A stretch of 57,373 bases of DNA from a virus: positions 1 to 57,373 of the IMG/VR virus record IMGVR_UViG_3300037882_003154. One strand, written 5' to 3'. This document shows, one piece after another, positions 1 to 45,677 of this stretch (position 1 is the stretch's first letter; the number at the start of each line of letters is the position of its first letter). A program made the translations under genes and the position numbers. The notes beneath the pieces were generated by a model. The model saw only the letters and a program-made list of their open reading frames with translations, was not told the DNA's origin and made no database searches.

Positions 1-176
1 AAGTTTATATGTCTACCCAACACCCAAGTTTATATGTCTACCCACCAAAACAGCCTCTTGCCCCACAATATGATATGTCTATCCAAGATATGCGACATGT
101 GTATTTATGTGGTAATTCCCTATCAATATGATATATATATCTACTGTAATTGTCTATACTATGTGTTGATATGAAA

Positions 177-206
177 GAGCCCAAATAAAAAAATTAGAGG
201 GGGCTC
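177..206 (-). terminator. Inverted repeat, possible terminator of 224..424
   Basis: GAGCCCC (177-183) / GGGGCTC (200-206) just downstream of the minus-strand ORF; only a short T run follows. Confidence 0.35.
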
Positions 207-223
207 CTTAGAGAAATATATGT

Positions 224-424
224 CTACCCAATATCAGAGTCCCTCCACCTAAATGTCTGGGGCTTGATGTATCCAAGCCTGTGTCTTTTCTTCTGTACTT
301 TTACTACATTGGTATGCATACCATATTTTTGATTGAGCCCATTAGACAATTCTTCATCTGTTAGGGTTTTATAATTGTCTTTAAGAAATTTAATTGCACT
401 AACAGACCATTTGTTGTTTTTCAT
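224..424 (-). CDS. Small helix-turn-helix (Myb/GcrA-like) DNA-binding protein
   Basis: KWS...FLKDNYKTLTDEEL...L...KKRHRLG pattern; resembles the repeated unit in 1464..2534; minus-strand GGTGTATT upstream. Confidence 0.55.
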   Translation of the reverse strand: MKNNKWSVSAIKFLKDNYKTLTDEELSNGLNQKYGMHTNVVKVQKKRHRLGYIKPQTFRWRDSDIG

Positions 425-483
425 AAGTGGCTCTTTTTAAAAAATAGGGGGGTGGCAAAACACAAAAGAAAGTCTACCCAAAA

Positions 484-516
484 AATACACCAACGTATCT
501 TTGTGTGTATATAATA
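484..516. promoter_or_regulatory. Divergent pair of putative late-promoter motifs
   Basis: GGTGTATT on the minus strand (484-491) and variant TGTGTATATAATA on the plus strand (504-516), facing genes starting at 424 and 550. Confidence 0.5.
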
Positions 517-3916: not shown

Positions 3917-4388
3917 ATACAAGGTGATAGTTGACACCAGGGAAAGGGCTGAATATAGATGGTGGTTTGATCCAGACGACTGTTGTGAGGGATCCGAACT
4001 ACTTAAACTAGACACCGGAGATTATAGTATAAAAGGGATGGAGCATTTGTTGTCAATAGACCGCAAAAGAAATACTGCGGAAATATCACAAAACATTGTA
4101 GATAGTAGGTTCTTTGATGAATTAGAAAGAATGCAGGTATTTAAATATAAGGCTATTGTTTGTGAGTTCAATATGTTTGCTATTATGAATTTTCCATATT
4201 CTAGTGGCATACCAAATAATAAATTAAAAAACATCAAGATTACATCTAAGCTTATATTATCTAAAATCGCCTACATACAAGCCCAATACAATATACCATT
4301 TATATTTTGTGACAACCGAGAATATGCAATGATATATTCACAAGCCTTTTTCAAGAAAGTATACGCTATTGAGTGTCAAAACGTATAA
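3909..4388 (+). CDS. ERCC4/XPF-family structure-specific nuclease
   Basis: VIVDTRE...LDTGDYS...IDRKR (GDxnERK-type motif). Confidence 0.85.
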   Translation: MNKYKVIVDTRERAEYRWWFDPDDCCEGSELLKLDTGDYSIKGMEHLLSIDRKRNTAEISQNIVDSRFFDELERMQVFKYKAIVCEFNMFAIMNFPYSSGIPNNKLKNIKITSKLILSKIAYIQAQYNIPFIFCDNREYAMIYSQAFFKKVYAIECQNV

Positions 4389-6390
4389 GCCAGATGAAGT
4401 AAAAAAGCTATTAGATTTATCTTGGCTTAATATAGACAATATATTTGACTATGCGGCTTCTCGCAGCAGAACTCATGGTGGTTTTTGGGATGGTGTAGAC
4501 GAAGATGTTCCCGAAAACCTTATTAACACCCTTTTAGACCCTGATTATTTTTACTTTACCGTAAAGATGATTCTTGGGCTCGAACTATTGCCATTTCAAT
4601 GTGTAATATTAAAAGAGCTTTGGACAAAGCCCTTCCCCATGCTTATAGCAAGCCGTGGATTCTCCAAAAGCTTTTTGCTTGGCGTATATGCTGTATTAAG
4701 GTGTGTATTGTGTCAGGGATCAAAGGTTGTTATTTGCGGGGCTGGCTTTAGACAGTCTAAAATAGTCTTTGAATACTGTGAGAGCTTTTGGTATAAGTCC
4801 GCTATATTAAGAGATATTTGTGGGGCTTCTAGCTCACAAGGACCAAAGCACGACACAGATAGATGGCATATGAAATTGGGAGAGAGCATTATAATTGCTA
4901 TACCAATAGGTTCTGGTGATAAGATTAGAGGCATTAGGGCTACACACCTAATCAGTGATGAATTTGCTGCTATCAACCCGGAGATTTATGAAAATGTCAT
5001 ACAAGGATTTGCTGCTGTTAGTGCTGATCCTGTTAGCAATGTTAAGGCTGAATCTAGGAAAGATACTGAAAAAAAACTTGGAATAGCAGATAATCTTTCT
5101 TTGATATCCAAGATGGGCAACCAGTCTATATTGTCGGGCACAACCTATTACACCTTCAATCATTTTTTTGCTTATTGGCGGAAGTACAAAAACATTATAG
5201 AGAGCAAAGGCGACAAGAATAAGCTCAAAGATATTTTTGCTGGTGATGTTCCAGATGAATTTAATTGGCAGGATTTTTCTGTTATGAGAATGCCATATAA
5301 TCTATTACCAAAAGGGTTCATGGATATTAAGCAGGTATATAGATCTAAGAGTATGCAGCATGTTAGTATGTTTAATCTAGAATATGGGGCTGTGTTCTCT
5401 GATGATAGCAATGGTTTTTATAAAAGATCATTAATAGAGAACTGTGTTGCCAATCACACAAATAATATTATACTTTCCTCTGGTAATATAGAATTCTCGG
5501 CAATGTTAAGGGGCTCGCCGGTAAAAGAATATATCTATGGTATTGACCCTGCTTCTGAAGCTGACAATTTTGCAATAGTAATCATAGAGATTAATAATGA
5601 CCACAGAAAGATAGTCTATTGTTGGACCGTAACTAGAAAGTTACACAAACAAAAAATAGTTAAGGATCCCAATATAGAGAGAGACTACTATGCTTATTGC
5701 TGTAGGAAAATTAGAGAATTAATGATGGTGTTTCCTTGTAAATACATTGGTCTCGACACACAAGGTGGCGGCATTGCCGTAGAAGAGTGCTTACATGACG
5801 AAGACAAAATAAAATATGAAATAGGTGAAAAGCCCATTTGGAAAATAATAGACCACGATAAGCCCGATCCAACGGATACTATGGCTGGAATGCATATTAT
5901 ACACAGGATTAATTTTGCTGATTCTGAATGGGTATCTGAGTCTAATCATGGTATGCGCAAAGATATGGAAGACAAATATCTATTGTTTCCAGAATTTGAT
6001 AATATTAGTATCGGGCTGGCTGCTGAACAGGATGCCTTAAATAATAGAACATACGACACACTAGAGGACTGTGTAATGGAGATAGAAGAGCTTAAAGATG
6101 AGCTTTCTTCTATCATACATAGTCAAACTGGTATAACAGGCAGAGATAAGTGGGATACGCCCGAAGTTAAAGTAGCTGGTGGCAAAAAGGGCAGACTAAG
6201 AAAAGATAGATACACCGCCCTATTAATTGCTAATTCTATAGCTAGAAGATTAGAGAGACAGATTAATTATCAGTTTCATGGTTCTCCCGGTGGCTTTGCC
6301 GCTAATGCAGGAAAAGATTGTAGTGGCAGACTATTCTATGGTCCTGAAGATTTTTGTCAAGCTATGCAGGAAGTGTACGGCTTAGACTAA
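4369..6390 (+). CDS. terL: Terminase large subunit
   Basis: PFQ adenine motif, Walker A ASRGFSKS, IRGIR, Walker B HLISDE, RNase H-like YIYGIDPA and KDRY; TTG start. Confidence 0.93.
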   Translation: MSVKTYKPDEVKKLLDLSWLNIDNIFDYAASRSRTHGGFWDGVDEDVPENLINTLLDPDYFYFTVKMILGLELLPFQCVILKELWTKPFPMLIASRGFSKSFLLGVYAVLRCVLCQGSKVVICGAGFRQSKIVFEYCESFWYKSAILRDICGASSSQGPKHDTDRWHMKLGESIIIAIPIGSGDKIRGIRATHLISDEFAAINPEIYENVIQGFAAVSADPVSNVKAESRKDTEKKLGIADNLSLISKMGNQSILSGTTYYTFNHFFAYWRKYKNIIESKGDKNKLKDIFAGDVPDEFNWQDFSVMRMPYNLLPKGFMDIKQVYRSKSMQHVSMFNLEYGAVFSDDSNGFYKRSLIENCVANHTNNIILSSGNIEFSAMLRGSPVKEYIYGIDPASEADNFAIVIIEINNDHRKIVYCWTVTRKLHKQKIVKDPNIERDYYAYCCRKIRELMMVFPCKYIGLDTQGGGIAVEECLHDEDKIKYEIGEKPIWKIIDHDKPDPTDTMAGMHIIHRINFADSEWVSESNHGMRKDMEDKYLLFPEFDNISIGLAAEQDALNNRTYDTLEDCVMEIEELKDELSSIIHSQTGITGRDKWDTPEVKVAGGKKGRLRKDRYTALLIANSIARRLERQINYQFHGSPGGFAANAGKDCSGRLFYGPEDFCQAMQEVYGLD

Positions 6391-39960: not shown

Positions 39961-41786
39961 TGGCTTATCCAGCAGATCGTGGTAAATTTGGATATGCCGA
40001 ATCTTCGGGTGTATTCTACTCGGAATATGAGCCCACAAGACTGTTGTATCACACATACTTTAGGGGACCTGCTGGTGAAAACCCATCTTTATTATATAAC
40101 GGACCAGTTTCAATCAACAATTCCTATCGTGTAACCAACTATGATATTGGTTCCCACATATTATATTCAGATAGTTTTCCTCATTCAATAGCATCAAGAA
40201 ATATATTTTGGTATGATTATGATGCATATCAACAAAACAAACTATCACTACCATCTATAGGCGGATCTGGAATCAATGTATTATCTAGTGGTGTTACAGC
40301 CTTTTTTAGAAAATATCCAATATTATGGTCATATAGCGATCTAACTAGTAGTGGGCAGTTTACCAGATTTTTTACAAAAAGTCTTGGGCTTCCTTTTTCT
40401 GACATATCTTTGCCATCTGGTGATAGACCACTCTCTGTTACAATACCAACACTATATATAGTTTCTGGTAGTGTTCCACGAGACATATCCAATTCTGAAC
40501 TTGCAATTATGCCCTTTTACCAAATGGCTGATGTAATTTGGCAGTGCCACAATCATATAGATGGAATGTACAGAAACCCCAAGATCAATGCTGCACATCC
40601 ATGTGGTGAAGATTGGATCAATCCAGAGTCATCTGCTAGTAGTCAGACTGCAACACTAAAGAGCAGAGTGGCTACGGAGACATATGTTATTAGTGGCGTC
40701 CCAATACCACAATTGACCAAAGAATATGGTCTGCAATTTAATAACTTAACACTTAAGGCAACTGGATTTATAGGACCCCAAAACCACTTACTATATGCAT
40801 CTGGTCAAATTCCTGGTTCTGGTTATATGCCATATCTTCAAATGGCTGAGCAGTGTTGTTTTGAAAATATCAGGGACCACAATTTCATTACCAAAGTAAC
40901 TAATAGCAGTCCTGTCGTTCCGCCAACATTTAATCAGGTTAGTGGAATTGGTGATTGGGGATATAGTAGTCTTGGACTATCTTCCGGCATATTTTTAGAC
41001 ACAGCTAAAATAGTGGGGTCTAATAAGATATTGCCTAATGGCGTGGTCAAACAGTGGTTATTGGCGACAGAAATACCCGACAGTGATATATTGACAAGTT
41101 GTGTGAGAGCCAAGTTTTTTGGTGGCTTGGGCAATTCTAGTTTTGATATAGTGTGTTCTGGAAGCCAACCCACTATTTCTTTAAATGCCACAACACATTT
41201 CCTTAGAACCGATCCAGTTTTTCTTACACAGACCATTACCACAGAAACAACACCAATAAAATTAATACCAATATTGTATACACAGGTCAAGATAGAGCAC
41301 AATGCCCCGGTTACAGTTGGAGGAAGCATATGCACTATGGGTGATGCTACCGGTCTGCGATTTGGGGTTGCAAATACCAATAAAGCTAATAGATTGGGCG
41401 TATCTGTTAGTGGGTCAACATTTTATAGTATAGCCAATGCAATGTTTAGTAAGCTTGGTGATCCAATATCACCATCAATACTACATAATATTCAGCAGCA
41501 TCCATTCAGGCACAACACTCAAAGCTTCTTTGGTACGCCGGTCACACTGGTTATAAATAACAAAATATTTTGGGCTATAGCTAGGTCGGTTGAACCAACC
41601 GGCACCACAACAGGAACAGCCCGAACATTTACAGAATTAACAATACCGCCAAATACTATGGTATTGAACCCATCTAGTATATACATCAAGATCAATGGTA
41701 TAGATGTTCCATGCAGTAGACTAGACGGCATTAATATACCAGGAAGTTCAATTTTTGATGTGTTCCAATACTCTGCTAGTCCCTAG
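39960..41786 (+). CDS. Tail-tip-associated hypothetical protein
   Basis: TAATG-coupled last gene of the late arm; Ser/Gly-rich. Confidence 0.55.
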   Translation: MAYPADRGKFGYAESSGVFYSEYEPTRLLYHTYFRGPAGENPSLLYNGPVSINNSYRVTNYDIGSHILYSDSFPHSIASRNIFWYDYDAYQQNKLSLPSIGGSGINVLSSGVTAFFRKYPILWSYSDLTSSGQFTRFFTKSLGLPFSDISLPSGDRPLSVTIPTLYIVSGSVPRDISNSELAIMPFYQMADVIWQCHNHIDGMYRNPKINAAHPCGEDWINPESSASSQTATLKSRVATETYVISGVPIPQLTKEYGLQFNNLTLKATGFIGPQNHLLYASGQIPGSGYMPYLQMAEQCCFENIRDHNFITKVTNSSPVVPPTFNQVSGIGDWGYSSLGLSSGIFLDTAKIVGSNKILPNGVVKQWLLATEIPDSDILTSCVRAKFFGGLGNSSFDIVCSGSQPTISLNATTHFLRTDPVFLTQTITTETTPIKLIPILYTQVKIEHNAPVTVGGSICTMGDATGLRFGVANTNKANRLGVSVSGSTFYSIANAMFSKLGDPISPSILHNIQQHPFRHNTQSFFGTPVTLVINNKIFWAIARSVEPTGTTTGTARTFTELTIPPNTMVLNPSSIYIKINGIDVPCSRLDGINIPGSSIFDVFQYSASP

Positions 41787-42180
41787 GTCCAATGCCTTTG
41801 TAGGGCATAGCCAGCCCCAAATTTAACAACCTTTCATTAAGATTGATCCAGTTATTATCTTGGTCGAAAAAATAAACTGTAGCAAGGTATCTTCGCCACT
41901 TTTCCCTTTTCATCTTGTAGGGTGTTTTGACCAACATTTCACTCTCTACGAATATTCTTGAGGCATTCTCACATAGAGTAAAGAATATCTCATAAGCCTC
42001 TTTGCCCTTTTCTGTTGACATATTTTGTGTATTTAGCCCAGATAGCCTAAATTCAACGTCGGTTTTGATACTGTATCCTAGATCGACACTGGCAACAAAT
42101 GTGTCACCATCAATGATCCTGTTGATCTGGACTTCTCGAATATAGTTGTCTAGTGGGGCTAAGACTATGTTATTGGTCAT
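41776..42180 (-). CDS. Staphylococcal nuclease (SNase/thermonuclease)-like protein
   Basis: RIIDGDT...VDLG...RLSGLNT...KWRRYLA.V....LNE.LL..GLA.PY. Confidence 0.88.
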   Translation of the reverse strand: MTNNIVLAPLDNYIREVQINRIIDGDTFVASVDLGYSIKTDVEFRLSGLNTQNMSTEKGKEAYEIFFTLCENASRIFVESEMLVKTPYKMKREKWRRYLATVYFFDQDNNWINLNERLLNLGLAMPYKGIGPRD

Positions 42181-42284
42181 AAAATGCCATTGGTTTGCAA
42201 TAGGATTGGTTCTGGCTTAGGGCTGGACGGAGTTTGTGCTGGAATACCACGAAAACATTGTATATTATTCATTAGGGCTAATTT

Positions 42285-42346
42285 AAAATAAAAAAAATCC
42301 CACAACCAAGAAAGTCAACAACCACCTTCAATCTTGGCTGTGGGAT
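42285..42346 (-). terminator. Terminator-like hairpin, 3' end of candidate ncRNA
   Basis: 15-bp stem ATCCCACAGCCAAGA/TCTTGGTTGTGGGAT (one G.U on the minus strand) followed by a T-rich tract. Confidence 0.75.
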
Positions 42347-42860
42347 CTAGCAAAAGGGACGCTACGCTAACAAAATTTTATTTCACCCTTATCATTGGGT
42401 GCATTTTTCACTCACTGTCTTACTGATACTATTGATACTTTAGGAACTATTCGTGACTATTATCCTACGAGCCCCCCTCTTACTATTTTGTAGATATATT
42501 TCATTCGGGACTTATACCTAGTGTTTCTTATCACCGACCGTTCTATGAAAGATATTTTTAATCCACAAACGGCACGTTTGTGGGCGTACCAAACCCATTT
42601 GCAGGGGTTTAGTAAAAGACAAGCCGCAATTATCATTTAATTGTAGGCTGACCGGAAGTATTTTTTTTACTACGCACACTCCCTTCAACCACGTAGTTTG
42701 GCTTTATTATCCTAGATCGGTTATCGAATCTATAAATAGGAGAACACCAAAAATCTTGCGTTTACCAATTATGATATTTTTTTGTGCAAAATGCGTAGGC
42801 TGGTAAACTTCTAGGACCTTTGCCAAATCAGGTGGCTATATTTTCACGAATCATCTTCAG
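42285..42860 (-). ncRNA. Candidate large structured non-coding RNA (~570 nt), family not recognised
   Basis: ORF-free; at least 9 hairpins; several stems pair G.U on the minus strand but A.C on the plus strand; TATAAT upstream and terminator downstream. Confidence 0.6.
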
Positions 42861-42864
42861 TGTT

Positions 42865-42870
42865 ATTATA
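42865..42870 (-). promoter_or_regulatory. Sigma70-type -10 box for candidate ncRNA
   Basis: Perfect TATAAT on the minus strand at the upstream edge of the structured region; -35 match is poor. Confidence 0.4.
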
Positions 42871-43006
42871 TCCCAGGTGAATACAAAAAATCATACTTTT
42901 TCTTGTCTAAGTCGGATAATATTTTTTAACTCTTTGAGAAAACACGCCAAAGATTTTTAAAACAGGTAGAGTTTCGCGGCGAATGCCGCATAGCTGAATA
43001 AACAAT

Positions 43007-43327
43007 CTAGTGTGAATCTAGGGACTTTCGGTAAGTTATGCAATTGTGCAAAAATTCATCCATCGGTGGTACATATATTTTTTCATCTACATATAAACCG
43101 ATGGCTTTGGCTAGCTCCATGCGATTTTGCCAACACAGGTCGTGTCCATCCTTGGACAAATAGTCCTTGACACTTTTAACCAGATTATTATATTTGTGTT
43201 TGTTGATGGTTACTTCTTTAATATCTTGTAGTCTACATTTTAAGTAGCGAACTCGCCTTTTATAAAGATAATAAAGTTTGATATACAGCAAACCAAGGGT
43301 GATGATTATGATCCGTTCAATTGTCAT
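43007..43327 (-). CDS. Hypothetical protein with N-terminal hydrophobic segment
   Basis: IIIITLGLLYIKLYYLY; GGAG SD. Confidence 0.6.
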   Translation of the reverse strand: MTIERIIIITLGLLYIKLYYLYKRRVRYLKCRLQDIKEVTINKHKYNNLVKSVKDYLSKDGHDLCWQNRMELAKAIGLYVDEKIYVPPMDEFLHNCITYRKSLDSH

Positions 43328-43360
43328 AATTACTCCATGCCGATGGTTATTTGTCTGTGG

Positions 43361-43705
43361 TTACTGTTTTTTGATTGGGACCCACTTTACCCAACCACCA
43401 TTGGGAAGGTATTCCTTAGATTCATCGGTTTTCTTGCGTCTAGGATACAGTGCCCCTTTGGGCTTTTTTTTCTGCCCAAAGGACAGAACAGCCCTGCAAG
43501 ATATATTTTGGCACTTTAGATCATAGTATTTATTATCATCCTTGTCTGTCCGAACAGAGTATCGTAGATCTTTAGACTTACAACACCCACACTCACTAAT
43601 ACCAAATACCTCTTGAACGCCCATGAGGGTTTCAAAGGCATCGGTATGAACATCGGAGTCAAAACACACATCAAGACGGTCATTAACCTTGTATGTAAAT
43701 TTCAT
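43361..43705 (-). CDS. Zinc-ribbon hypothetical protein
   Basis: CGCC...CQNISC, basic aromatic C-terminus (GWVKW). Confidence 0.65.
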   Translation of the reverse strand: MKFTYKVNDRLDVCFDSDVHTDAFETLMGVQEVFGISECGCCKSKDLRYSVRTDKDDNKYYDLKCQNISCRAVLSFGQKKKPKGALYPRRKKTDESKEYLPNGGWVKWVPIKKQ

Positions 43706-43969: not shown

Positions 43970-44785
43970 TTAACCTTTCTCACTAGAATTTTCAACTTCT
44001 AACAAATGCCCAGGTATTTCTTTTTCTCCTCTAAAATACTCACCCAGTCTTTTAATCATAGCAGTAGACACGTCATATGGCACCTCCTTGATATCATTAT
44101 ATGCTCTCTTACCACTATTAATAAATGCACTAACATTTATATTACATCTTTGGCACAAGAGTGTTATGCCTAAAACTCTGCCCTCATCTATTAGGGCTTC
44201 GTTGTCAAACAGAGATCTGTCTTGTGCAGCCTGAATGTCACTCTCTTCTCTAACAGACTTTTCTTCTGCACTAATGTTCTTAATACCAAGCGCTTTTCTC
44301 AAGGCTCTGCCCTCTGCTCTGGTCTCTGCCGTTGCTGATGGATGCTGATTATATGGGGATATTGTGTTTTCAGACCAACAATCTGCGACAGCCATAATAG
44401 TTTTGTATAATTGTATGCCGCTATCATCAAATGACCTTAGAGCAAATACTATGGTATGTTCAACCGACGCCCTATTACCATTTTCTTTTGTGGGCGCTTG
44501 TACTATTTTGGTCTTAGATTCGGCTATTTGCCCAATAAGCTTTTGGGCTACTCTGCGTAATCCGTCGGTTTTTGGATTATCACCTTGTAGTTCGTCTTTT
44601 GCGAACAAAGACATCACATAATCAGACCAATCTGGATCCGTATAGCTTTCTAGATATGTCCGTTCTTTGGTTGTGGTCTCATTGTTGTTTTGCAAATCAC
44701 CAACAAGATATCCATCATCTACCGACAATATCTTCTGGTCCCCTAATGTATCCTGGTCGTTTGGTTCTGATTTTTTTCTTGGCAT
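43970..44785 (-). CDS. Putative Rad52/Sak-like single-strand annealing protein
   Basis: DGLRRVA...A.AD...ATAETRAEGRALRKALGI motif typical of phage Rad52-like recombinases. Confidence 0.55.
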   Translation of the reverse strand: MPRKKSEPNDQDTLGDQKILSVDDGYLVGDLQNNNETTTKERTYLESYTDPDWSDYVMSLFAKDELQGDNPKTDGLRRVAQKLIGQIAESKTKIVQAPTKENGNRASVEHTIVFALRSFDDSGIQLYKTIMAVADCWSENTISPYNQHPSATAETRAEGRALRKALGIKNISAEEKSVREESDIQAAQDRSLFDNEALIDEGRVLGITLLCQRCNINVSAFINSGKRAYNDIKEVPYDVSTAMIKRLGEYFRGEKEIPGHLLEVENSSEKG

Positions 44786-45677
44786 TGTTCGGTTTTCCGG
44801 TTGTGGTATCTTTCCTAATACGAAGTGGCTTGTTTTCTATTATAAGTTCTCGTATTGGAGAAGGGTTTAATATACTGATATCAGGGTGCTGACCTGAATA
44901 TGGCGTCGGTGTGATTTCAAGATAAGTGGGCTCTTTGGGCTTTGTCTTGAATTTTTCCAGGGTCTCCAAAAGAATTTTAGAAACCTCTCGACAGTATTTA
45001 TTCGATTTTGTATCACCGAAGTGTCTCAATCTTATTATACTCAGTCCCTTGCCCAAAAGCAATCCCATTTTCTGAATATCGGCTTTTCGTGTTTTGGCTA
45101 GGGCTTCTTCGCCCCAAACCGGATAAAAGTGCGACGGACCATCCACTTCAATAGCGACACCCAGGTTTTGGACGAAAATATCAATCTCCAGTTTTTCATT
45201 AGCCAAAATTTTATTATAATGAAATACCACATTGTGACCCTCGTTTTTTAATAGTCGGAATAGCATGTGCTCCATTTTAGATCCAAGCTTTGATGCTTTC
45301 CTAATGCCATCTATGCCCATCTTGATGAAATCTTCTTTTTCTTTTTTTGTTCTTTTGTTCCATACTTTTTTGGCTTTTTCTACATGCACCTGTTTTTGCT
45401 CTTCGGACTTTTCGTGCCAAACCCTATAATTAGATTCGCTGATAGCCAGCTTTGTGCTTTCAGAGGACTCTTTTCCTTTGGTGGGGTGTTCTTTTGAGCC
45501 GGTCTCATAAGCATTAGCAAGAGCTTCGCCTCTAGTTCTTTTTGGTATACCGAACTTTTCTAGGGCTCTGTTAATTTGTTCTGGAAAAAGCCCCATTTCT
45601 TTAGCTATACTAGACGTTGATCTTTTATTTTGTGCATATTCTTTTTGCAGATATGCCTTGGTTAGTTCTTTACTCAT
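44715..45677 (-). CDS. DUF559/Vsr-like endonuclease with N-terminal HTH and NUMOD3-like basic region (homing endonuclease-like)
   Basis: SKMEH.L...EIDIF....VAIEVDGPSH...D..K...L...G..IIRL; N-terminal ST..IAKE.G and S.STK.AIS. Confidence 0.75.
   Translation of the reverse strand: MSKELTKAYLQKEYAQNKRSTSSIAKEMGLFPEQINRALEKFGIPKRTRGEALANAYETGSKEHPTKGKESSESTKLAISESNYRVWHEKSEEQKQVHVEKAKKVWNKRTKKEKEDFIKMGIDGIRKASKLGSKMEHMLFRLLKNEGHNVVFHYNKILANEKLEIDIFVQNLGVAIEVDGPSHFYPVWGEEALAKTRKADIQKMGLLLGKGLSIIRLRHFGDTKSNKYCREVSKILLETLEKFKTKPKEPTYLEITPTPYSGQHPDISILNPSPIRELIIENKPLRIRKDTTTGKPNNAKKKIRTKRPGYIRGPEDIVGR

What the first reader, a model, noticed from the sequence alone, without database searches (positions are those of the whole stretch)
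42285..42870. Candidate novel ~570-nt structured ncRNA with its own -10 box and terminator
Seen: this is the only long ORF-free gap (42181-43006) in an otherwise gene-dense window, and it is packed with stems: 42297-42311/42332-42346 (15 bp plus T tract), 42384-88/42397-401, 42441-45/42463-67, 42563-70/42576-83, 42587-96/42605-14, 42622-49, 42669-74/42692-97, 42711-40, 42760-67/42801-08 and 42822-25/42833-36. In four stems the imperfect position is G.U on the minus strand but A.C on the plus strand, which suggests selection on a minus-strand RNA; one stem (42622-49) favours plus. A TATAAT lies at 42865-70 (minus). The 5' segment AUUCGUGA (42844-51) is complementary to UCACGAAU (42449-56), which sits in a hairpin loop and could form a long-range pseudoknot. 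Two loops share UUGAAGG. Knowledge: large phage-associated ncRNAs such as ROOL and GOLLD exist in this size range, but I could not recognise hallmarks of RNase P, tmRNA or group I/II introns. Inference: an undescribed large phage RNA.
Basis: partly seen in the sequence, partly recalled or inferred. Interest (0 to 1): 0.9.

Follow-up and report, generated by a model that had tools for sequence, protein, structure and literature searches.

The report
Singleton candidate large structured phage RNA
The longest gene-free stretch of this uncultivated 133-kb phage folds, on the minus strand, into the most stable and best-defined RNA structure in the genome and ends in a strong terminator, so it is probably a new roughly 0.55-kb non-coding RNA, but no relative could be found to prove it.

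Summary

Evidence for a minus-strand RNA:
- 42285-42870 folds at -169.4 kcal/mol (z -4.8 against shuffles).
- Its GC-corrected stability exceeds all 454 same-size windows of the genome.
- The ensemble is unusually well defined, and long-range helices have pair probability of 0.9 or more.
- It splits into three domains (z -3.5 to -4.1) plus a 16-bp/U8 intrinsic terminator that works only on the minus strand.
- No ORF in it matches any protein family.
- Rfam 15 and ARAGORN find nothing.

A 60%-identical relative has the two flanking genes abutting, so the spacer is a dispensable insert or deletion.

Not supported:
- The TATAAT box is unverified.
- The 8-nt "pseudoknot" and the shared UUGAAGG loops are within chance expectation.
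- The strand difference in folding energy is common in this genome.

No homologue was found anywhere, so covariation cannot be tested. The scan's by-sequence look-up found no look-alike on other DNA. It has noted other large phage RNAs, but none is shown to be related.

Verdict: a plausible (about 45%) new large phage ncRNA, unproven.

The parts
43007..43327 (-). Upstream flanking gene: 106-aa protein with a conserved GHDxCWxN...C.EYRKSLD domain. It is intact and ends right after KSLD, as in relatives P0005 and P0006.
   Evidence: no Pfam or PHROG match
42865..42870 (-). Candidate -10 box TATAAT. It is unverified: there is no recognisable -35 box and the consensus scan did not call it.
   Evidence: the shared GATATAAT in relative L085 is not statistically meaningful
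42532..42862 (-). Long-range closing helix (42862-42838 pairs with 42555-42532, about 21 bp with small bulges). It encloses domains A and B.
   Evidence: pair probabilities are 0.90 for the two 6-bp segments and 0.45 for the inner 4 bp
42687..42836 (-). Domain A: branched domain closed by 42837-42832/42692-42687. Inner helices are 42827-22/42702-697, 42817-10/42716-09 and 42808-00/42768-60.
   Evidence: z -3.51; -38.2 kcal/mol; helix probabilities 0.95-0.98. It folds about equally well on the plus strand.
42560..42686 (-). Domain B: four tandem hairpins (42683-76/42661-54, 42653-42617, 42614-05/42596-87, 42583-75/42571-63).
   Evidence: z -4.02; -42.2 kcal/mol; helix probabilities 0.98-0.99. 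The hairpin sequences are unique in the genome.
42346..42487 (-). Domain C: closed by a 12-bp helix 42485-42474/42359-42348 that contains three G.U pairs, with an inner hairpin 42401-397/42388-384.
   Evidence: (z -4.11; -38.7 kcal/mol) against the plus strand at z -1.83 and -23.7 kcal/mol; closing helix probability 0.98
42288..42347 (-). Intrinsic terminator: 16-bp stem followed by U8. It abuts the 3' strand of domain C's closing helix directly.
   Evidence: I1; z -6.56; -28.3 kcal/mol; P 0.96
41776..42180 (-). Downstream flanking gene: 134-aa staphylococcal-nuclease-like endonuclease. Its start lies 105 nt after the terminator.
   Evidence: SNase, below cut-off; phrog_452 endonuclease, E 3.6e-18

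Best explanation
The spacer carries a minus-strand transcription unit of about 515-575 nt, running from about 42862 to the U-tract at 42290. It most likely makes a stable, stand-alone structured non-coding RNA.

The RNA has three compact domains (A, B and C). A long-range helix ties its 5' end to the segment after domain B. A strong intrinsic terminator abuts domain C and defines the 3' end.

I infer that it acts through its fold, as a protein-binding scaffold or decoy made during infection. I do not think it acts by antisense pairing or as DNA.

Shown:
- The region has no coding capacity.
- Its fold stability and definition are exceptional.
- The terminator and domain C are specific to the minus strand.
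- The spacer is absent from a close relative.

Inferred:
- That it is transcribed.
- Where transcription starts.
- That it acts in trans.
- What it binds.
For: - Fold: z -4.77 and -4.05 without the terminator. It is the most stable 586-nt window of 454 in the genome after GC correction. Each of the three domains is separately significant.
- Ensemble: diversity and entropy are 2.7 sd below shuffles, and helices spanning 130-330 nt have P>=0.9.
- Strand: the terminator has U8 on the minus strand only, domain C is minus-specific, and there are 28 G.U pairs against one A.C mismatch.
- Non-coding: the longest ORF is 58 aa. No gap ORF was called as a gene in the 15-billion-protein collection, and none has a family match.
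- Not repeats: there are no iterons or tandem repeats, and base composition matches the surroundings.
- Discrete module: relatives L002/L003 have the two flanking genes overlapping by 17 nt. Relative L085 again has at least 248 nt of non-coding DNA after the same gene.
Against: - There is no homologue, so no covariation. Everything rests on thermodynamics of one sequence.
- I chose the domain boundaries from the MFE, which inflates the per-domain z-scores.
- Domains A and B fold about as well on the plus strand.
- The strand difference in MFE is ordinary for this genome.
- There is no convincing promoter.
- The non-coding tail of L085 shows no significant similarity or structure.
- A close relative lacks the spacer, so it is dispensable.
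Confidence: 0.45

Rival explanations
1. It is a cis-acting structured leader or attenuator. The RNA and its terminator sit 105 nt upstream of the nuclease gene and gate read-through into it. The layout resembles a riboswitch or attenuator, or the RNA-terminator-toxin order of type III toxin-antitoxin loci. In this reading the structure controls nuclease dosage or timing.
For: - The terminator lies directly between the structured region and the SNase-like gene, and no promoter was called between them on the minus strand.
- The 3' strand of domain C's closing helix abuts the 5' strand of the terminator, the geometry of an expression platform.
Against: - In relatives L002/L003 the nuclease gene is expressed without any such leader and is translationally coupled to the upstream gene.
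- There are no tandem repeats as in ToxI.
- No riboswitch or leader family matched.
- I saw no clear antiterminator alternative.
- About 570 nt is very long for a leader.
Confidence: 0.2
2. It is a spacer without a dedicated RNA function. It would be left-over DNA from an insertion or rearrangement, and its hairpins at most terminate or stabilise the upstream operon mRNA. The overall fold score would then be an extreme of the background.
For: - A close relative does not need the spacer.
- There is no conservation to point to.
- In 120-nt windows only two segments are locally significant.
- A homing-endonuclease-like gene lies 1.7 kb away, so the neighbourhood does receive insertions.
Against: - The phage is otherwise tightly packed.
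- The fold is more extreme than all 454 genome windows.
- Long-range helices are well defined.
- Random or decaying DNA should not give low ensemble entropy.
Confidence: 0.17
3. It is a DNA-level element: a replication origin (hairpin- or RNA-primed), or a recombination or packaging site.
For: - Hairpin-dense, ORF-free regions are typical of origins.
- Domains A and B and the perfect 9-bp palindrome 42563-42583 fold equally well on both strands.
Against: - There are no iterons, no AT-rich unwinding block, and no composition shift.
- The palindromes occur only once in the genome.
- The genome's clear iteron cluster lies elsewhere, at 1-500.
- Domain C and the terminator depend on G.U pairs and a U-tract, so they work only as minus-strand RNA.
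- The spacer is not next to replication genes.
Confidence: 0.08
4. It is a decayed protein gene, for example a free-standing homing endonuclease, or a cluster of very small protein genes.
For: - The size (about 0.8 kb) and the intergenic position fit a free-standing endonuclease insertion.
- Another such gene is nearby.
Against: - Stop codons are dense in all six frames, and the longest ORF is 58 aa.
- No ORF matches Pfam or PHROGs even at E<=1 beyond noise.
- None was called as a gene in the protein collection.
- I saw no ribosome-binding sites.
Confidence: 0.05

Closest known systems
ROOL and GOLLD RNAs (large 'ornate' RNAs of phages and prophages; Rfam families; cryo-EM homo-oligomers, PMC12286853; ROOL discovery, PMC5737381)
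   Same: The size class (about 0.5-0.8 kb), phage carriage, multi-domain fold, lack of coding capacity and unknown function.
   Different: - There is no sequence or structure match to either model, even at E<=10.
- It is not next to tRNAs: there are none in the genome.
- No family, covariation or oligomer evidence exists for this RNA.
Type III toxin-antitoxin loci (ToxIN-like): promoter, antitoxin RNA, terminator, nuclease toxin
   Same: The gene order: a structured RNA, then an intrinsic terminator, then a nuclease gene on the same strand.
   Different: - The RNA has no tandem repeats.
- The nuclease is SNase-like, not ToxN-like, and PADLOC finds nothing.
- A relative carries the nuclease without the RNA.
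Other large phage ncRNAs noted earlier in this scan (RaK2-like jumbo phages, Streptomyces phages; AI notes e1-123407, e1-3427489)
   Same: An ORF-free gap of 0.5-0.8 kb in a dense phage genome, running from a promoter to a terminator, with no Rfam match.
   Different: - Those were reported as multi-copy or conserved families.
- This one is single-copy and has no look-alike in the scan's index.
- I did not test any relation to them.

Membership tests
ROOL / GOLLD / OLE / HEARO / raiA and every other Rfam 15 family | The covariance-model score reaches the family's gathering threshold | tested here: not met
   There were 0 matches at gathering over the whole window. At E<=10 on 41700-43400 there were only three short chance hits, each far below its cut-off.
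Group I / group II self-splicing intron | It interrupts a host gene whose exons join in intron-less relatives, and it has a ribozyme core recognisable by Rfam models | tested here: not met
   Both flanking genes are complete on their own. The upstream protein ends at KSLD, as in P0005 and P0006, and nothing after the stop aligns. There is no intron model hit.
tRNA / tmRNA | A cloverleaf or tRNA-like domain with a tag reading frame, detectable by ARAGORN | tested here: not met
   There are 0 genes in the window and 0 in the whole genome.
Type III toxin-antitoxin (ToxIN-like) | The antitoxin RNA is built of tandem direct repeats | tested here: not met
   TRF finds no array at score >=30, and the repeat finder gives only short two-copy families.
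Type III toxin-antitoxin (ToxIN-like) | A terminator lies between the RNA and a downstream nuclease toxin of a known toxin family | tested here: inconclusive
   A terminator and a nuclease gene are present. However, the nuclease is SNase-like with no PADLOC match, and toxicity was not tested.
Rho-independent (intrinsic) terminator | A G+C-containing stem-loop immediately followed by a U-run on the transcribed strand | tested here: met
   A 16-bp stem of -28.3 kcal/mol (z -6.56) is followed by U8 on the minus strand.
Iteron-type replication origin | Clustered direct repeats (iterons) beside an AT-rich unwinding region | tested here: not met
   There are no repeat families beyond chance and no AT-rich block. 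Iteron-like repeats lie at 1-500 instead.

The most novel reading that the evidence does not exclude
This is the first, and so far only, sequenced member of a new class of large (about 0.55 kb) three-domain structured RNA. It is carried as an optional cassette by a deeply branching, almost unsampled lineage of 130-kb phages, and it acts through its fold in the way proposed for ROOL and GOLLD.
Probability: 0.4. Interest if true: 0.65.

Novelty: new variant of a known kind. Interest (0 to 1): 0.45.

Why it matters
Large structured RNAs of phages such as ROOL and GOLLD are among the least understood RNA classes, and each new unrelated example widens the set on which function can be tested. This one is compact, has clear 3' and plausible 5' ends, and looks modular. 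It is also present in one lineage and absent in a 60%-identical relative, a natural comparison for function. Its weakness is that it is a singleton. Without relatives or transcript data it remains a well-supported prediction, not a discovery.

Tried and rejected
**Homologue hunt (all negative)**
- blastn of the gap against 50,697 phage records and 72,556 plasmids.
- The scan's own index, by sequence.
- IMG/VR anchors:
  - SNase as a single protein found nothing. As a profile it gave 80 loci at 38% identity or less.
  - The Zn-ribbon-like gene found nothing.
  - The 608-aa neighbour found nothing.
  - TerL relatives (45-50% identity) lie only on contigs of 4-19 kb that cannot reach this locus.
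- JGI metagenomes, anchored on the Zn-ribbon-like domain: 80 loci, all at 38% identity or less.
- The 5.8-billion-protein search of all three neighbouring genes, then their contigs.
- The 1.84-billion representative search with the 608-aa neighbour: 34% identity or less.
- blastn and nhmmer of the gap against all loci held.
- Single-sequence covariance models of domains C and B against the whole genome and 100 loci.
- Degenerate DNA patterns in IMG/VR and in GTDB genomes. The 3 and 17 hits are all chance matches, either in coding DNA or without extended similarity, and a second pattern gave 0 hits.

**Ideas rejected**
- Homology between the L085 tail and the gap. The shared GATATAAT and a 28-nt look-alike tempted me, but the local alignment score is no better than shuffles (153-255 of 300 shuffles reach it).
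- A recurring TAGACA...TATAAT phage promoter. The spacing is inconsistent across sites.
- The hairpins as repeated operators. Each occurs only once in the genome.
- Antisense targeting. The best hit is a 16-nt exact complement to an mRNA at genome 111424-111439, but 8% of shuffles do as well.
- Host identification through named control genomes. No handles were given.

Full report
**Context**

The window is the first 57 kb of a 133,464-nt IMG/VR phage record that is estimated 85% complete. Plus-strand structural genes run to 41786. From there, minus-strand genes run to the window's end.

The finding lies inside the minus-strand block. Upstream is a 106-aa gene (43007-43327) with a conserved GHDxCW...C.EYRKSLD domain. 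Downstream is a 134-aa staphylococcal-nuclease-like endonuclease gene (41776-42180; phrog_452 E 3.6e-18; Pfam SNase below cut-off).

The lineage is very poorly sampled. The large terminase is only 24% identical to its best match among cultured phages, Microcystis phage MaeS.

**Observation**

Positions 42181-43006 are the largest stretch without an ORF of 75 aa or more in the whole genome, apart from the contig start.

The fold of the minus strand stands out in several ways:
- 42285-42870 folds at -169.4 kcal/mol (z -4.77). The plus strand gives -141.2 (z -3.35).
- Without the terminator, z is still -4.05.
- As a genome-internal control I folded all 227 non-overlapping 586-nt windows on both strands. 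After regression on GC, the target's minus strand lies at -3.24 sd, and the most extreme of the 454 controls is -2.48. The target's plus strand is ordinary at -0.85.
- The ensemble is well defined. Diversity is 54.6 against 141.9 +/- 32.5 in shuffles, and positional entropy is 0.44 against 1.10 +/- 0.24. Helices spanning 130-330 nt have pair probabilities of 0.90-0.98.

**Anatomy on the minus strand**

- A long-range helix (42862-42838 with 42555-42532) encloses domains A and B.
- Domain A (42836-42687) is branched, z -3.5.
- Domain B (42686-42560) is four tandem hairpins, z -4.0.
- A small hairpin lies at 42520-42491.
- Domain C (42487-42346) is closed by a 12-bp helix with three G.U pairs, z -4.1.
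- A 16-bp/U8 intrinsic terminator (42347-42288, z -6.6) abuts domain C directly.

I took the domain borders from the MFE, so the per-domain z-scores are somewhat optimistic.

**Which strand**

Domains A and B fold about as well on the plus strand. Domain C does not (-38.7 against -23.7 kcal/mol; z -4.1 against -1.8), and the U-tract exists only on the minus strand. The minus-strand MFE has 28 G.U pairs and a single A.C 1x1 mismatch. The plus-strand MFE has 17 and 3.

A strand difference of 28 kcal/mol or more occurs in 25 of 227 windows, because sense strands in this genome are G-rich.

**What it is not**

- Not a known RNA family. There is no Rfam 15 hit at gathering, only noise at E<=10, and no tRNA or tmRNA.
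- Not coding. The longest ORF is 58 aa. No gap ORF is in the 15-billion-protein collection, and none matches Pfam or PHROGs.
- Not repetitive. There are no iterons, tandem repeats or composition shift, and the hairpin sequences occur only once in the genome.
- Probably not the origin. An obvious iteron cluster (the ATATGTCTACCCA motif) sits at 1-500, a better origin or operator candidate.
- Not an intron. Both flanking genes are complete.

**Comparative evidence**

Two ENA contigs (L002, L003) carry the nuclease at 60% identity and the upstream gene at 46-52% identity. There the two genes overlap by 17 nt and have no spacer. The spacer is therefore a discrete, dispensable module that was either gained here or lost there.

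A Logan contig (L085) has the two upstream genes at 58% identity and the same gene end. It then has at least 248 nt of non-coding DNA before the contig stops. That tail shows no significant similarity to the window's spacer and no unusual folding. It neither supports nor refutes homology.

Every other route to a homologue failed (see Tried and rejected).

**Details I could not support**

- The TATAAT has no -35 partner and was not called by the scan.
- About 2.6 perfect 8-nt complements and about 10 repeated 7-mers are expected by chance in 586 nt. The proposed pseudoknot and the shared UUGAAGG loops therefore carry no weight.
- A 16-nt exact complement to a phage mRNA at genome 111424-111439 is matched or beaten by 8% of shuffles.

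**Interpretation**

The best reading, at about 45%, is a stand-alone structured ncRNA of about 515-575 nt that acts through its fold. The main rivals are:
- a cis-acting leader or attenuator for the nuclease gene (about 20%);
- a functionless spacer whose hairpins merely terminate or stabilise the operon mRNA (about 17%);
- a DNA element such as an origin (about 8%);
- a decayed gene (about 5%).

In kind, it resembles the large ornate phage RNAs ROOL and GOLLD, which form RNA-only homo-oligomers (PMC12286853). Membership in either family was tested and not met.

Earlier notes of this scan report other large phage RNAs in RaK2-like and Streptomyces phages. They raise the prior for this kind of gap, but they are unchecked and no relation to this sequence is shown.

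Noticed in passing
window 1-500: There are four to five direct copies of an ATATGTCTACCCA-like motif (at 7, 32, 73, 218 and 472) in the ORF-free contig start. These iteron-like repeats could mark the replication origin, a genome terminus or an operator array.
   Followed up: partly
window 44715-45677 (minus): This 320-aa ORF matches HNH/homing-endonuclease PHROGs (phrog_559, E 6e-11). It is probably a free-standing mobile endonuclease, 1.7 kb upstream of the spacer.
   Followed up: no
window 42610-42625 versus genome 111424-111439 (L209:1425-1440): There is a 16-nt exact complement between the candidate RNA and the minus-strand mRNA. It lies at the junction of a trypsin-like peptidase gene and a 100-aa ORF (codons 4-9 of the latter). 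In shuffles, 8% give a match at least as long, and the site is mostly base-paired in the predicted fold.
   Followed up: partly
L002:2-737 and L003:3-765: In this relative the upstream gene carries a 28-aa C-terminal extension that overlaps the nuclease start. That is what one would expect if the spacer had been deleted there and the reading frame ran on.
   Followed up: partly
window 43007-43327 (minus); L087-L166: The GHDxCW...C.EYRKSL domain has no Pfam or PHROG model. It nevertheless has 130 tblastn-confirmed relatives in JGI metagenome contigs, many apparently from soil. It is an undescribed small phage or prophage protein family.
   Followed up: no
window 4369-6390 (plus): The large terminase is at best 24% identical to any cultured phage (Microcystis phage MaeS, Bacillus phages). 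IMG/VR relatives at 45-50% identity exist only as short contigs, so the lineage is essentially unsampled.
   Followed up: partly
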